This document shows positions 48,679 to 53,166 of a DNA stretch of 64,000 bases, one piece after another. Position numbers and translations under genes: made by a program. Under the pieces are notes generated by a model. The model worked only from the letters and a program-made list of their open reading frames with translations, made no database searches and was not told the origin of the DNA. Source of the stretch: Trichoplax sp. H2 (Eukaryota); NCBI GenBank assembly GCA_003344405.1, contig NOWV01000172.1, positions 62,001-126,000 of the forward strand. The letters are read 5' to 3'. Numbering within the stretch: position 1 is the first letter of the stretch; every line of letters begins with the position of its first letter.

Positions 48679-51600
48679 TTAAGCCAAAGCTTCATGTAAA
48701 GCTTGCTCAATATCATGTAGCAAATTCGCTGTATCTTCAATGCCGACGGAAAGTCGAATCTAAAGAAGTTGATTAATTTTTGTATTATAACTTTAATATT
48801 GTATGATTATAACAGTCAATTTCAATCAAGTTCTATATAATTAGTATACAACATATCAATTTAACCTGTAATTAAATTGAATGTTTGTAGCGTGATAATA
48901 TTACTACCATATAGCCATTTGAATGATGCAGAATGTATACCGCTTTAATAATAAATCTGGGGCTATTTTCGGTTGCAAGTGGCGATATTTGTATTAAAAA
49001 TTGGCGTTATGCAAGCGTAAATTTGAATTAAAGGAGAGACTCATGCACTGTAATTAGCCGATATACTCATAACATTAGCGTTGGAATTATCCTAATTTAA
49101 TCGTGCTGAAGTACTGAGTTATAACAGGACNNNNNNNNNNNNNNNNNNNNATGTTTGTAGCGTGATAATATTACTACCATATAGCCATTTGAATGATGCA
49201 GAATGTATACCGCTTTAATAATAAATCTGGGGCTATTTTCAGTTGCAAGTGGCGATATTTGTATTAAAAATTGGCGTTATGCAAGCGTAAATTTGAATTA
49301 AATTAATCGTGCTGAAGTACTGAGTTATAACAGGACTAGCTGCAAATTTCTCTAACGGCACGAAACACTTTCCTCAAAATCGCACAGCGCTTAGTAGATT
49401 TGGGCAATTCGACGATAATTCATGATTAAAAAGTAATTATGACAACGAAAAACAACTTGCTGCATCCGAAAGAATAAGCTACATTAATGGATATGTGAGC
49501 CAAATGCAATACAATCACATTGCACATCAATAAACTGATACTTGTAAAAATTATAACTGATTGCATCTTGAGATGCTATCGCGTTATAGCTTCGGTATAC
49601 GACTATACACATGTGCCTTGAAATAATAAGTTACTTTCTAAATAAAAATTTAAACGAGCTCACAATCTTAAAGCCTTTGATAAGGAACGCCTTATTACTA
49701 AGGAGTACATTCTGAGTATAGTACAGCAAATTAACACTGTAATATGTATTCAATTTGTAGCATTACTTTTCTCTTTTATACTAAACAAAATCGAATACTT
49801 ACAAATGTTTCATAAATTTCCAATTTATCAAGTTCAGCTTGATCCACATTCTCACGAGTCATAAGGGGACTAAAGCAGGCAATAGAAAATAATAGTAAAA
49901 TTCGATTCGTTGTTGGTATGTACAGTGTTATTTAGTACCAATACAGAATATTAAGAGAATATAACATGGATATTAACTTACGTTAATTCTGCTACTGATT
50001 CAACACCACCTAGGCTGACAGTTAATAAAATCACCTAATGACAGATATGGTAACTTTATTGGAATAAATGTGTATTTACGTTCAAGTATAAATTGAACAT
50101 TGAATTCAATGTAATTGCTCTCCTACTTGATTCAAAAGACAGTTAAAAGCAATAACTTTTCATCTACATTAACTTCATTAATACGAGCGAATACCTTCAA
50201 ACTTTGTAGAAATTTCTTAGCCTGTTCAACAGTTCCATTAATAACGAATGAGACCATTCCGCTAAAACCTTTCATTTGCTTTTTTGCAAGTTCATGTTGA
50301 GGATGAGAAGGCAAGCCTGTAATGGATTTTTCGTATTGATTACTGGATACAATCCATTCTAATGCTAGCGTACAAAAGGTCTGAGACATCCATAATGTAA
50401 CAGCTATAATTTCTATAACACATACCAAGATACTTTACATTTCTCACATATGGCGATTGCTCAAGGTATTTGGCTATTGCCAGTGCATTTTTTTGGTGGC
50501 GCTCCATACGTACAGATAACGTCTTTAGGCCACGATTTACCAAGAAGCAATCGAAAGGACTTGGTATACTACCAACATCTATTAAAAAATATCATAGAAT
50601 TTAAAATGAGATATCTATTCCAGCTTAACAATGAGTAACTAAGCTAGCTAAAGCATCTTACTGATTTGTATAGACTCCAATTTGCGGTAGATATCTTCGC
50701 TGTTGCTGACTATTGCCCCCATAATGACATCAGAATGACCTAACGTATAGTAAATACATAGAAGCCATCTGTAAAATCTACTATCGATTGTATCTATAAA
50801 ATATATTACAAACCATTTATATATTTGGATAGAGAATGCAATACCATATCAATACCATAGGACAGTGGTCGCTGCAAAAGGTGTCAAAATTTTAAAAATA
50901 AAGCTTACTCAAAGCCGCATTAATACTACATCTAGCAATGTTTATAAAAATAATATGCTTAGACTGGTAAAGTAGTACAATAGTATTTTAATTAAACAAG
51001 ATTGTACCTGAAAGTATGGTGTCGCAAACGTATTATCTGCAACGATGAGAATATCCTATAATTTCACCGTAGAAACGTATCCTAGGTCAGCTATTAATTT
51101 GTTGACAATCCATTCTCAGACTGAGCTATCATTAACTTAAAGAACGTTCTGATACATTACAATCAATACGAATCATTGTTTTACCTTGTGTTTACGAGCG
51201 ATCTTTACGGCCCCTTCAAGATCAGTGACTCGTAAGCATGGATTTGTCGGTGTTTCCAACCATAATATCTGCAAACACCAATCTTAATCTTTAGAACAGC
51301 AATAACTCAATAATGCATAAAATATCAACAGCAACTTGGGCAATAACTTATGCGCTAATAGACCTAGATCGTACAGATTAATGTTGCTGCAGTATTAACA
51401 GAACCAATAGATCAAGAAGTAAATTACATCAAGATTAATTATTTATCGTATTGGACTGCTAATTCTAAAGAGAATTAATTAAGTTTGTAACACAGGTCAT
51501 GCATATACAATAGACATTAGCTATCGTACAATTCTCGTATGTATTCCCGGTATATATTTTAACCATAGTACTATAAATTAACGTGTTCACTGTAAATTAG

Positions 51601-53166
51601 CGCAATTGAAAAGAAATTGACATAGATTCACAAAGTAATCAGCTATATTTAGATAAAAAATGTTATCAACCTGCAAACTAATATCATCTAAGAATATAGC
51701 GTTAACCTTAGTATTGCTTTTGAAAGTCTTTTCCAGAGTTTCCATATCTGCAGTATCGATGAAGCTTACTTCGATATTAAATCTGTTGGCAACGTTTTTC
51801 CAGAAATTAGAAGTACCTGAAAGGTAGATAAATTAATTAATTAAATACTAGTCATTAAATCTATCTTCTACAATACAGCGTATAAAAATCATAATTATAA
51901 TTATTCGCCGTGTCGTGTTTCTATGACCGATGATATCAATCAATGATAGGGTATCTGCAGTGCGAAGTGAACTTCTACAGTGCAAACTACACTGAAATTA
52001 GAATGAATAATTTTACGCACACAATTATAATTAAGAAGACTGTTTGTTGAGTCAGCAGTAATATCATAAGCATGCATTTGATATAGAATATTTGGCGTAA
52101 AATTTTCATAACTAACATTATTTTTGTCAATCAAATATCACATCTAAAAGTGTTATGGTTTTGTCACATATGTATTACAAGAAGGTGGCAAATTAAGTTA
52201 TTCCTAAATCTTTTGATCATCAAGGTGAAACGGTAAATTGAATTCTACATCGTAATTTTAGCATATTATCAGTATAGAGTAAGCCTTATGTTAATCATAA
52301 CAAGATTTCGATGCTATTCTCGCAAGGTGATGAAGTAGGTTAATCAAGTATTTTCAATTTAGCGTCGTTCCTGAACGAAATGGTTTGATTGTGCTATATA
52401 AATATTGAGTTCTATCATTGTAGGCAATAGACGAGAGTAACAATACTGTCTACCTCAGTTTAACTGGAGTATTTTATATGACAGACTTGAGTAATAGTAA
52501 ATAATTGACTTGCAACTGCTTAGAGTAGTAAAGTATAGGTAACTTTTGAAAAAGCAATGTGGACGCATACCTCCATAGACATCAAAAGGGCAGATGACAT
52601 GATCACCCGCCTTGATGAGATATCCCAAAGCCGATATAGCAGCAGTTCCAGAGCTGAAAGCATTACCTAAATCATTTTCAACGAAAATTCAGCTTAGCTG
52701 ATGTTATGATAGATCGCAGTGTCATAAGAATCAAGTTATGCAAAAACGAATACCAATCCAAGATGATTCAGTTGACTACTTACAGTACTTGCCATCTTCC
52801 AACTTGGCTATAGCAGATTCAAGAGCAGCTCGATTTGGGTTTAAATCGCGAGAATAAACATAATTCTAGGATACAACAGTTAAGGTAATGATAATCATTG
52901 ACAGTGTTGTAAACTATTGCAAATAGAATACTGCATAAATTAAAATATGGATGTAAGGAGATGATTGATTCATGTCCTAAATCGCGATTGATCAATTAGG
53001 TCCATGATCTCACCAAGCCTTTGCCAGCCTCTGGATAGCGGAAAATCGTTGATAAATAGATGGGAGGGATACCGCTACGGCAGTTGTAGAGCTCATCGCG
53101 GGTATCTTGACCAGTGTGAATACTAACAGTAGAGAAACTGTCAAAACGATCAGTATTTTCAGCCAT
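48679..53166 (-). CDS. CTH: Cystathionine gamma-lyase-family PLP enzyme (CTH-like, divergent active site)
   Basis: 13 exons: [57 protein letters not shown] (PLP Lys), [22 protein letters not shown]. Stop at 48679-81. Several intron positions coincide with vertebrate CTH as recalled. Confidence 0.88.
48881..49336. other. Assembly gap (20 N, 49131-49150) with duplicated flanks
   Basis: 48881-49130 and 49151-49336 are the same sequence except one SNP (ttttcgg/ttttcag) and a ~64-bp indel at about 49033-49096. Confidence 0.9.

What the first reader, a model, noticed from the sequence alone, without database searches (positions are those of the whole stretch)
48679..53166. CTH-like enzyme with a rewired substrate pocket: candidate animal methionine gamma-lyase or H2S-producing desulfhydrase
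Seen: PLP and catalytic residues are kept (YSR, Tyr of DVYGGT, DNTF, Lys of SLSK, Arg of IRLSVG). Three positions differ from human CTH: FEYSR -> YVYSR (E59V, codon 52857-59), YGGTNRY -> YGGTSNF (R119N, 51806-08), LAESLGG -> LTVSLGG (E339V, 50017-19). Known: E59, R119 and E339 hold the distal amino-acid end of cystathionine; bacterial methionine gamma-lyases have AVSLG at the 339 position; E339 substitutions in human CSE raise H2S output. The MGL-typical YGCT Cys is absent here. Inference: an intron-rich CTH paralogue of animal origin that no longer prefers cystathionine and may act on Met, Hcy or Cys, an activity not normally credited to animals.
Basis: partly seen in the sequence, partly recalled or inferred. 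Interest (0 to 1): 0.72.

Follow-up and report, generated by a model that had tools for sequence, protein, structure and literature searches.

The report
Rewired cystathionine-lyase paralogue in Trichoplax
A placozoan (Trichoplax) carries, beside its normal cystathionine gamma-lyase, an expressed second copy in which the residues that hold the far end of cystathionine are replaced much as in human enzymes engineered to degrade methionine or cysteine, so it probably works on a different sulfur amino acid.

Summary
Window 48679-53166 (minus strand) holds a 13-exon gene with GT-AG introns. It encodes a 394-aa Cys/Met-metabolism PLP enzyme, 392/394 identical to Trichoplax adhaerens TRIADDRAFT_64137. 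RNA-derived contigs from four studies join all 12 introns as modelled.

All 11 PLP and catalytic residues I checked are kept. The residues that hold the distal half of cystathionine are replaced: E59V, S63D, R119N, N241I and E339V (human numbering). A canonical paralogue that keeps E59/R119/E339 exists in the same species.

In 180 near homologues, 172 keep both R119 and E339. The 8 that do not include extra copies in a tubeworm, a horseshoe crab and a scorpion, each sister to its own lineage's normal copy, so the rewiring recurs independently.

The protein sits inside the eukaryotic CGL clade on a long branch. It is not a bacterial-type methionine gamma-lyase: it scores below the TIGR01328 cut-off and has no YGCT cysteine.

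Published engineering of human CGL at E59/R119/E339 creates methionine gamma-lyase activity and lowers cystathionine activity. Loss of cystathionine preference is therefore a well-founded inference. The true substrate (Met, Hcy, Cys or other) is untested. I class it as a new variant of a known kind, of moderate interest.

The parts
48679..53166 (-). Whole coding span of the CGL-like gene (ATG at 53166, stop ends at 48679). It has 13 exons and encodes 394 aa.
   Evidence: 392/394 identical to P0001. PF01053 scores 461.9 bits on P0001.
53014..53166 (-). Exon 1 (aa 1-51). RNA contigs reach 53226, so the 5' UTR is at least 60 nt.
   Evidence: joint 52865->53014 in X8, X9, X10.
52784..52865 (-). 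Exon 2 (aa 52-79). Holds [10 protein letters not shown]54 (=E59, 52859-52857) and D58 (=S63, 52847-52845).
52571..52666 (-). Exon 3 (aa 79-111). Holds SSGT (T86 = L91) and the Tyr of DVYGG.
51707..51816 (-). Exon 4 (aa 111-147). Holds GTSNF: S113 (=N118) and N114 (=R119, 51808-51806).
   Evidence: The joint 51268->51707 is seen in all 4 runs, which supports this donor and not the one 36 nt downstream used in the Trichoplax sp. H2 record.
51185..51268 (-). Exon 5 (aa 148-175).
51008..51055 (-). Exon 6 (aa 176-191). Holds DNTF (D182 = D187).
50814..50871 (-). Exon 7 (aa 192-211). Holds SLSK with the Schiff-base Lys K207 (=K212, 50826-50824).
50662..50739 (-). Exon 8 (aa 211-237). Holds I236 (=N241, 50665-50663).
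50426..50578 (-). Exon 9 (aa 237-288).
   Evidence: Two synonymous variants (50472, 50478) appear in RNA contigs.
50195..50316 (-). Exon 10 (aa 288-328).
49982..50034 (-). Exon 11 (aa 329-346). Holds LTVSLGG: T333 (=A338) and V334 (=E339, 50019-50017).
49803..49869 (-). Exon 12 (aa 346-368). Holds MTREN in place of MTHAS (R351 = H356, 49856-49854) and L359 (=R364).
48679..48759 (-). Exon 13 (aa 369-394 plus stop). Holds IRLSVG with R370 (=R375). Codon 380 is N here and D in all four laid runs.
48760..49802 (-). Last intron. It contains the 20-N assembly gap (49131-49150), flanked by a 152-nt direct repeat spaced 270 nt apart.
   Evidence: The joint 48759->49803 is seen in all 4 runs.

Best explanation
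The gene encodes an active, cytosolic, PLP-dependent lyase of the gamma-family (fold type I, PF01053). It arose by duplication of the animal cystathionine gamma-lyase.

Shown:
- It is expressed and correctly spliced.
- It keeps every residue checked that binds PLP, forms the Schiff base or holds the alpha-carboxylate.
- A canonical CGL exists beside it in the same species.
- The residues that hold the distal cysteinyl half of cystathionine are all replaced (E59V, S63D, R119N, N241I, E339V).
- Eight more conserved positions are also replaced, mostly in the C-terminal active-site segment.

Inferred: the enzyme no longer prefers cystathionine. [quoted passage not shown]
- With L-methionine or L-homocysteine, the products would be methanethiol or H2S, plus 2-oxobutyrate and NH3.
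- With L-cysteine, the products would be H2S, pyruvate and NH3.

The canonical paralogue would continue to carry out transsulfuration.
For: Gene and expression.
- The ORF is intact with GT-AG introns.
- All 12 introns are removed in contigs from runs of 4 studies.
- The same protein is present in T. adhaerens and in Trichoplax sp. H2.

Family and fold.
- PF01053 scores 461.9 bits.
- The AlphaFold model has pLDDT 89.8 and TM 0.94 to human CGL structures.
- 11 of 11 catalytic/PLP residues are kept.
- The protein lies inside the eukaryotic CGL clade, with support 97/94 against bacterial outgroups.

Canonical partner. P0123 keeps E59/R119/E339 and departs from consensus at 1 conserved column, against 12 of 109 for this protein.

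Pattern of change.
- R119 and E339 are both present in 172 of 172 homologues outside the 8 rewired ones.
- Departures are concentrated: 8 of 18 conserved columns in human 333-373, against 4 of 90 elsewhere (the region was chosen after seeing the data).

Literature (passages read).
- hCGL has no Met activity. E59N/R119L/E339V creates a methionine gamma-lyase. The 8-mutant that includes E59I/R119A/E339V has 15-fold lower cystathionine activity.
- E59, S63 and E339 coordinate cystathionine, and R119 bonds N241, which anchors S63 (PMC7293657).
- E339V enhances Cys binding (PMC10053738).
- Hydrophobic E339 substitutions raise H2S output from Cys, and the yeast E48+E333 double mutant selectively impairs cystathionine hydrolysis (PMC6073527).
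- Yarrowia MGL has A118/T332 at the Arg/Glu positions (bioRxiv 10.1101/2025.07.27.667015).

Comparison with a curated MGL. P0413, which passes the curated MGL cut-offs, has I59/L63/A119/V339.
Against: - No activity was or could be measured here.
- Position 59 alone is not decisive. Toxoplasma CGL has Ser there and is a strict CGL, and yeast E48 single mutants are near wild type (PMC6073527).
- The pocket did not become purely hydrophobic. New charged or polar residues appear (D at 63, N at 119, R at 356, E at 357), and their position relative to the substrate I could not measure because model coordinates are not given.
- The MGL-consensus residues that improved the engineered enzyme (L63, M91, G311, S353) are not present (D, T, S, L). 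R268 matches, but it is common in CGLs (66 of 180).
- H356, kept in 177 of 180 homologues, is changed to Arg, with unknown consequences for catalysis.
- The end branch is long: 1.22 against a median of 0.34.
- No orthologue outside Trichoplax was found. This also fits a young, fast-drifting duplicate.
Confidence: 0.55

Rival explanations
1. It is a lyase or replacement enzyme for a substrate outside the usual Met/Hcy/Cys set, for example an S-, Se- or O-substituted amino acid from the algal or bacterial diet. The new D63, N119, R356 and E357 would recognise a different distal group.
For: The pocket gained charged and polar residues rather than only hydrophobic ones. Eight of 18 conserved columns of the 333-373 segment changed. 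In the wider family, the residue pairs at 119/339 are extremely varied: only 47 of 129 representatives have R/E. A representative with the same V59/N119/V339 triad and YGGT exists (P0471), and its function is unknown: it matched no NCBIfam family at E <= 1e-135.
Against: Nothing in the window or the literature searched points to a candidate substrate. Neighbouring genes give no pathway hint: 5 ORFs scanned, no Pfam hit.
Confidence: 0.2
2. It is a duplicate under relaxed selection: a weakly active or inactive enzyme on its way to loss, or a non-catalytic partner subunit of the canonical CGL tetramer.
For: The end branch is long (1.22 against 0.46 for the canonical paralogue). It departs at 12 of 109 conserved columns, including H356R and P351T. 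No orthologue above 55% identity was found among near-length proteins, and none above 59% among short ones.
Against: All 11 catalytic/PLP residues checked are kept. Changes are focused on the substrate pocket, not spread evenly. The ORF is intact in two Trichoplax lineages, with 2 amino-acid differences. It is spliced correctly in RNA contigs of 4 studies. Coding variants in the runs are 1 non-synonymous and 2 synonymous, too few to test. The fold is predicted with confidence.
Confidence: 0.13
3. It is still an ordinary cystathionine gamma-lyase, redundant with the canonical copy.
For: It lies in the eukaryotic CGL clade. Its best solved relatives are human CGL at 50% identity. A validated CGL (Toxoplasma) tolerates a non-acidic residue at position 59 (PMC6073527).
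Against: R119 and E339 are both kept in 172 of 172 non-rewired homologues, and both are lost here, together with S63 and N241. The engineered E59/R119/E339 variants lose cystathionine activity (PMC7293657). Toxoplasma CGL keeps the E339 equivalent, E359 (PMC10053738).
Confidence: 0.07

Closest known systems
Human cystathionine gamma-lyase (CTH/CGL; PDB 2NMP, 3COG) and the canonical Trichoplax CGL (P0123, XP_002115085.1)
   Same: Same fold and family. About 50% identity to human CGL, TM 0.94, and 52% to P0123. The same PLP and catalytic residues are kept. It belongs to the same eukaryotic clade.
   Different: E59, S63, R119, N241 and E339 are replaced by V, D, N, I and V. It also has H356R, A357E, S358N, R364L and others. 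The branch is roughly 2.7 times longer than that of the canonical paralogue.
Engineered human CGL variants: hMGL-1.0 (E59N/R119L/E339V, PDB 5TSU/5TT2), hMGL-4.0 (8 mutations, 6OVG) and the cyst(e)inase (E59T/E339V, 5EIG)
   Same: The same three positions are altered, with V at 339 in all of them. These chains are the top sequence hits in the PDB (431, 428.6 and 428 bits, against 427.3 for the wild type) and the top fold hits.
   Different: This protein is natural, not engineered. It has V and N rather than N/I/T and L/A at positions 59 and 119. It lacks the S63L, L91M, T311G and I353S changes of hMGL-4.0 (it has D, T, S, L). It has extra changes at 241 and 356-364. The margin over wild-type CGL in bits is small.
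Bacterial methionine gamma-lyase (NCBIfam TIGR01328 / NF004876; here P0413, which passes both cut-offs)
   Same: Hydrophobic residue at position 59, no Arg at 119, Val at 339 in x-V-S-L-G.
   Different: It scores 361.1 bits against a cut-off of 549.7 on TIGR01328, lower than the canonical Trichoplax CGL scores on the same model (398.5). It has Gly in place of the Cys of YGCT, and D63 and T91 in place of L63 and I/M91. PDB MGLs score at most 294 bits, against 427-431 for CGL.
Yarrowia lipolytica yMGL (bioRxiv 10.1101/2025.07.27.667015; passages read)
   Same: A natural eukaryotic enzyme in which uncharged residues (A118/T332) stand at the Arg119/Glu339 positions. Its authors report that this gives L-Met selectivity.
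   Different: It is fungal, and its authors place it with cystathionine gamma-synthase-like proteins. I did not have its sequence and did not place it in my trees.
Rewired CGL extra copies in other animals (P0024 Lamellibrachia, P0041 Tachypleus, P0044 Centruroides, P0205 Glandiceps, P0209 Cylicocyclus)
   Same: They have lost R119 and/or E339, often with changes at 59, 63, 241, 356-358, 364 and 371. They sit on long branches.
   Different: Their origins are independent. Lamellibrachia, Tachypleus and Centruroides copies are each sister to a canonical CGL of the same or a closely related genus, with 100% support. The replacement residues differ. None is a close relative of the Trichoplax protein.

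Membership tests
Cys/Met metabolism PLP-dependent enzymes (Pfam PF01053) | Full-length match above the gathering score | tested here: met
   461.9 bits against a cut-off of 27, profile positions 1-380 of 381 (on P0001, which is 392/394 identical to the window's protein).
Cys/Met metabolism PLP-dependent enzymes (Pfam PF01053) | Schiff-base Lys and PLP/alpha-carboxylate residues (Y60, R62, G90, Y114, N161, D187, S209, K212, S340, T355, R375 in human numbering; the list is recalled) | tested here: met
   11 of 11 kept.
Eukaryotic cystathionine gamma-lyase clade (by descent) | Groups with animal and fungal CGLs to the exclusion of bacterial relatives | tested here: met
   The careful tree of 26 rows separates eukaryotes from 3 bacterial rows with support 97/94. 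Placement inside the clade is unresolved.
Cystathionine gamma-lyase (by function, EC 4.4.1.1) | Residues that hold the distal half of cystathionine: E59, R119, E339 (plus S63 and N241) | tested here: not met
   V, N and V (plus D and I) stand at these positions. R119 and E339 are both present in 172 of 180 near homologues.
Cystathionine gamma-lyase (by function, EC 4.4.1.1) | Cleaves L-cystathionine to Cys, 2-oxobutyrate and NH3 | not testable with these tools
   Needs an enzyme assay.
Methionine gamma-lyase (NCBIfam TIGR01328 equivalog) | Score at or above the curated cut-off | tested here: not met
   361.1 bits against 549.7. None of the 25 NCBIfam models shown reaches its cut-off.
Methionine gamma-lyase | Active-site Cys in YGCT (Cys116). 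That this is typical of MGL is recalled; it is seen here in P0413. | tested here: not met
   YGGT in the window. LYGCTFA in P0413.
Methionine gamma-lyase | Uncharged residues at positions 59, 119 and 339 | tested here: met
   V/N/V here, I/A/V in P0413.
Methionine gamma-lyase | Releases methanethiol from L-Met | not testable with these tools
   Needs an enzyme assay.

The most novel reading that the evidence does not exclude
Animals are usually said to lack methionine gamma-lyase (recalled). On this reading they have repeatedly made their own Met/Hcy/Cys-degrading lyases by duplicating cystathionine gamma-lyase and stripping out the E59/R119/E339 cystathionine clamp. The Trichoplax enzyme would then be a natural counterpart of the engineered human 'methioninase', giving this early-branching animal an endogenous source of methanethiol or H2S.
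Probability: 0.3. Interest if true: 0.75.

Novelty: new variant of a known kind. Interest (0 to 1): 0.55.

Why it matters
Sulfur amino-acid catabolism in animals is usually drawn with a single gamma-lyase whose job is cystathionine cleavage. Methionine gamma-lyase activity is credited to bacteria, protists, plants and some fungi.

Here a natural animal enzyme carries changes at exactly the three positions that protein engineers had to alter to turn human CGL into a methionine- or cyst(e)ine-degrading drug candidate. Similar losses occur independently in extra CGL copies of a tubeworm, a horseshoe crab, a scorpion, a hemichordate and a nematode.

If the predicted change of substrate is real, three things follow:
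- It would reveal an overlooked route to methanethiol or H2S in animals.
- It would give a natural, eukaryote-derived scaffold for comparison with the therapeutic variants.
- It would offer a clean example of repeated neofunctionalisation through the same few residues.

A simple recombinant assay would decide it.

Tried and rejected
- Whole-genome access: none is held for this window. I could not fetch the canonical paralogue's locus, compare intron positions or measure the distance between the two genes.
- Second copy in the window: tblastn of the spliced protein against the window found no other match better than E = 1.2.
- Horizontal origin or bacterial-type MGL: rejected by the tree, the PDB scores and the NCBIfam cut-offs.
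- Placozoan-specific duplication: the AU test of a clade of this protein plus the canonical Trichoplax CGL gave delta lnL 8.64 and p = 0.057. It is neither supported nor rejected.
- Grouping with the Glandiceps rewired copy in the quick 60-row tree (SH-aLRT 88, two long branches): it dissolved into a polytomy in the careful 26-row tree, so I treat it as long-branch attraction.
- The careful search on 60 rows did not finish in two 300-s calls, so I used 26 of the 60 rows.
- Orthologues elsewhere: the near-length search, the short-protein search and the exhaustive representative search gave nothing closer than 55%, 59% and 53% identity. The collections may not hold other placozoan genera, so absence is weak evidence.
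- dN/dS: only 3 coding variants were seen in laid contigs, too few to test.
- Earlier notes of this scan: nothing for this genome and nothing relevant by words or by sequence.
- Neighbouring ORFs: 5 scanned, no Pfam hit, so there is no pathway context.
- Literature: a search for TRIADDRAFT_64137 gave 0 papers. 'Trichoplax' plus 'cystathionine' gave 4 papers (3 listed), none about this gene by title or abstract start. Two broader searches and one on MGL in mammals gave nothing on natural animal CGL copies with these changes.
- Model coordinates are not returned, so I could not measure distances from residues 63, 356 and 357 to the substrate site.
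Full report
**1. What is in the sequence**

Reading the minus strand of 48400-53500, I joined 13 exons. In one search this gives a 1185-nt open frame of 394 codons plus stop. All 12 introns begin with GT and end with AG. The ATG is at 53166, preceded by an in-frame stop with no earlier ATG, and the stop codon ends at 48679.

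A 20-N assembly gap (49131-49150) lies inside the last intron and does not touch the coding sequence.

**2. Whose gene it is**

A 50-aa exon translation retrieved a 394-aa protein of Trichoplax adhaerens: P0001, TRIADDRAFT_64137, XP_002115074.1, UniProt B3S3V3. My spliced model differs from it at 2 of 394 residues, V281A and N380D.

The other member of its 90% cluster is a Trichoplax sp. H2 record, P0342 (406 aa). Read by eye, it has the window's V and N at those two sites, plus 12 extra residues after exon 4. That record uses a donor 36 nt further downstream. The RNA contigs support the shorter exon.

The gene is therefore already in public databases, named 'uncharacterized protein' by NCBI and, automatically, 'cystathionine gamma-lyase' by UniRef.

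**3. Is it expressed?**

One search listed 20 runs. I laid four of them, from four studies. One (X15) is on record as RNA. The other three (X8, X9, X10) are only guessed to be RNA.

- In X8, X9 and X10, contigs join all 12 exon pairs at exactly my splice sites.
- In X15, nine joints are exact, one is shifted by a base with one extra letter, and two are not covered.

A form without introns is a spliced transcript, so the gene is transcribed and processed as modelled. Contigs say nothing about expression level.

Three coding differences from the window appear in the runs. One is N380D, present in all four runs. The other two are synonymous, at codons 270 and 272. That is too few for a selection test.

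**4. Family, fold and catalytic equipment**

- P0001 matches Pfam PF01053 over its whole length, at 461.9 bits.
- An AlphaFold2 model built on a 60-row alignment has mean pLDDT 89.8 and pTM 0.89.
- Its best structural matches are human CGL chains, at TM 0.94.
- By sequence, the best PDB chains are human CGLs at 427-431 bits. The best chain named methionine gamma-lyase scores 293.8 bits.
- With the offset query + 5 fixed by the 5eig alignment, Y60, R62, G90, Y114, N161, D187, S209, K212, S340, T355 and R375 are all kept. The list of residues is recalled from the CGL literature.

**5. The rewired pocket**

I aligned the 180 proteins of 340-500 aa, out of the 224 held at that point. They came from two searches seeded with this protein, so they are mostly eukaryotic CGLs and close bacterial relatives.

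| Position (human numbering) | Usual residue, count of 180 | This protein |
|---|---|---|
| 59 | E, D or Q in 164 | V |
| 119 | R in 173 | N |
| 338 | A in 178 | T |
| 339 | E in 173 | V |
| 356 | H in 177 | R |

Taken without prior choice, the protein departs from consensus at 12 of 109 columns that are at least 90% conserved. The median for the 180 proteins is 1, and the canonical Trichoplax copy also departs at 1. The twelve are T46I, R119N, V186A, P292L, F335I, A338T, E339V, L347V, P351T, H356R, R364L and D371E.

Eight of the twelve fall among the 18 conserved columns of human 333-373, against 4 of 90 elsewhere (Fisher p = 4e-5). I chose that region after seeing the list, so the p-value is only indicative. 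The change is therefore focused on the substrate side of the active site and is not spread evenly.

**6. A canonical partner exists**

P0123 (390 aa) is XP_002115085.1 / B3S3W7, present in both T. adhaerens and Trichoplax sp. H2. It is 52% identical to this protein and keeps E59, R119, E339 and MTHAS.

Both proteins are recorded on a contig of the same length, 3,210,713 bases, and their accession numbers are 11 apart. This suggests, but does not prove, that the two genes are linked. No second copy lies in the 64-kb window.

**7. Descent**

I chose 60 rows for tree-building: the named taxa, the rewired proteins and three top unnamed hits. A quick tree of all 60 and a careful tree of 26 of them both place the protein inside the eukaryotic CGL group.

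- In the careful tree, support against three bacterial rows is 97/94.
- The position inside that group is unresolved.
- The end branch is 1.22, against a median of 0.34 and 0.46 for the canonical Trichoplax copy.
- Forcing the two Trichoplax proteins together costs 8.64 lnL (AU p = 0.057). A placozoan-specific duplication is neither shown nor excluded.

On NCBIfam the protein reaches no curated cut-off. It scores lower on the MGL model TIGR01328 (361.1 bits, cut-off 549.7) than the canonical copy does (398.5). It is thus a diverged CGL by descent, not an acquired MGL.

**8. The same thing happened elsewhere**

Eight of the 180 homologues lack R119 or E339. The other 172 have both. The named ones among the eight are extra copies in:
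- Lamellibrachia (V/V/G at positions 59/119/339)
- Tachypleus (E/S/V)
- Centruroides (I/E/V)
- Glandiceps (I/L/T)
- Cylicocyclus (F/C/V)

In the careful tree, the first three are each sister to a canonical CGL of the same or a closely related genus, with 100% support. These losses are therefore independent.

Some positions not used to define the set are also changed more often in the eight than in the 172:

| Position | Changed in the 8 rewired | Changed in the other 172 |
|---|---|---|
| R364 | 4 | 3 |
| H356 | 3 | 0 |
| D371 | 5 | 9 |
| S358 | 6 | 26 |
| N241 | 6 | 34 |

Only the first three survive a correction for the 225 columns tested. Relatedness among the two unnamed rows of the eight is unknown.

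**9. What the wider family looks like**

An exhaustive HMMER search of 1.84 billion representatives found 27,913 relatives, none closer than 53% identity among the best 150. I aligned the 127 of those 150 that are 340-470 aa, plus the two Trichoplax proteins (129 rows).

- Only 47 rows have R119 with E339.
- 35 rows have Val at 339.

I gave 40 of the 127 to NCBIfam. One of them, P0413, passes the MGL cut-offs: TIGR01328 at 598.5 against 549.7, and NF004876 at 667.6 against 666. It reads Y-I-Y-T-R-L, L-Y-G-C-T-F-A and I-A-V-S-L-G at the relevant sites.

It also shows what the Trichoplax protein shares with MGL (uncharged residues at 59, 119 and 339) and what it does not (Cys116, L63, I/M91).

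**10. What the literature says about these residues**

I read passages only, except where a section is named.

- *PMC7293657 (passages and section 5).* Human CGL has no activity on L-Met. E59N/R119L/E339V makes it a methionine gamma-lyase. The eight-fold mutant E59I/S63L/L91M/R119A/K268R/T311G/E339V/I353S is nine-fold better on Met and 15-fold worse than the wild type on cystathionine. E59, S63 and E339 coordinate cystathionine. R119 hydrogen-bonds N241, which anchors S63.
- *PMC6073527.* E59/E339 (yeast E48/E333) coordinate the cysteinyl moiety. Hydrophobic replacement of human E339 raises H2S output from Cys. The yeast double mutant selectively impairs cystathionine hydrolysis. However, yeast E48 single mutants are near wild type, and Toxoplasma CGL has Ser at position 59 and is a strict CGL.
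- *PMC10053738.* Toxoplasma CGL keeps the E339 equivalent. E339V in 5EIG enhances Cys binding.
- *bioRxiv 10.1101/2025.07.27.667015.* A natural Yarrowia MGL has A118/T332 at the Arg/Glu positions, and its authors tie this to Met selectivity.

Stone 2012, Huang 2010, Cramer 2017, Messerschmidt 2003 and Hopwood 2014 are known to me only as citations in these passages.

**11. Interpretation**

Shown:
- an expressed, intact CGL-derived PLP enzyme with full catalytic equipment;
- a canonical sister enzyme in the same species;
- the whole set of residues that grip the distal end of cystathionine replaced.

Inferred: it has lost cystathionine preference and acts on a smaller sulfur amino acid.

My odds are 0.55 for a Met, Hcy or Cys lyase (within that, roughly even between gamma-elimination of Met/Hcy and beta-elimination of Cys), 0.2 for a different substrate, 0.13 for a decaying or non-catalytic copy, and 0.07 for an ordinary CGL.

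Against a simple 'natural methioninase' reading:
- D63, N119, R356 and E357 add polar or charged groups.
- The MGL-type second-shell residues are absent.
- H356R is unprecedented among the 172 canonical homologues.

**12. Novelty**

The gene is annotated, but I found no paper on it. A search for TRIADDRAFT_64137 gave 0 papers. 'Trichoplax' with 'cystathionine' gave 4 papers, 3 listed, none relevant by title or abstract start. Two broader searches found nothing on natural animal CGL copies lacking the E59/R119/E339 clamp.

Subscription journals and supplementary tables, for example those of placozoan single-cell atlases, were not visible to me and may hold expression data.

I class it as a new variant of a known kind, with interest 0.55. 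The hypothesis is well grounded, cheap to test, and touches the view (recalled, not from a call) that animals lack methionine gamma-lyase. Its substance is still a prediction of substrate specificity.

Noticed in passing
window 48881-49302 (last intron of the gene): The 20-N gap (49131-49150) is flanked by a 152-nt direct repeat at 99% identity, spaced 270 nt apart (48881-49032 and 49151-49302). One contig of run X8 skips exactly 270 nt (48971->49242) and one of X9 skips 206 nt (49096->49303). The duplication around the gap may therefore be an assembly artefact or an indel polymorphism.
   Followed up: partly
window 51671-51706 (start of intron 4): The Trichoplax sp. H2 protein record (P0342, 406 aa) reads 12 extra residues here by using a donor 36 nt downstream. 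All four laid runs join 51268 to 51707 instead, and the insert would interrupt a conserved motif, so that annotation is probably wrong.
   Followed up: partly
window 53149/53150 (exon 1, codons 3-6): One low-depth contig (3.6) of run X15 carries a 9-nt in-frame insertion that duplicates three codons near the N-terminus. This may be an indel allele or an error.
   Followed up: no
window 53280-55970 (upstream of the gene): A region dense in copies of a short palindromic motif (TACAGTACTGTA-like). It has direct repeat families and inverted repeats of 118 nt (55031-55148 / 55851-55968, 77% complementary) and 74 nt (55132-55205 / 55805-55878, 88%). It may be a foldback or MITE-like element.
   Followed up: no
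window 46393-48220, + strand: Long low-complexity ORFs rich in DPF/NPF-like motifs, Ser/Asn runs and a proline stretch, convergent with the CGL-like gene. They have no Pfam hit. RNA contigs of about 3.3 kb run across the gene's last exon and 3' UTR (48600-48759) and continue beyond the stretch laid, presumably towards this neighbour.
   Followed up: no
proteins P0345-P0347, P0391, P0452: Several of the best representative hits are 760-800 aa, and the top three match the query in two stretches. These look like tandem fusions of two Cys/Met PLP domains. Their origin is unknown.
   Followed up: no
protein P0471: An unnamed 381-aa representative has the same V59/N119/V339 triad with YGGT as the Trichoplax protein, at 41% identity. 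It matched no NCBIfam family at E <= 1e-135.
   Followed up: partly
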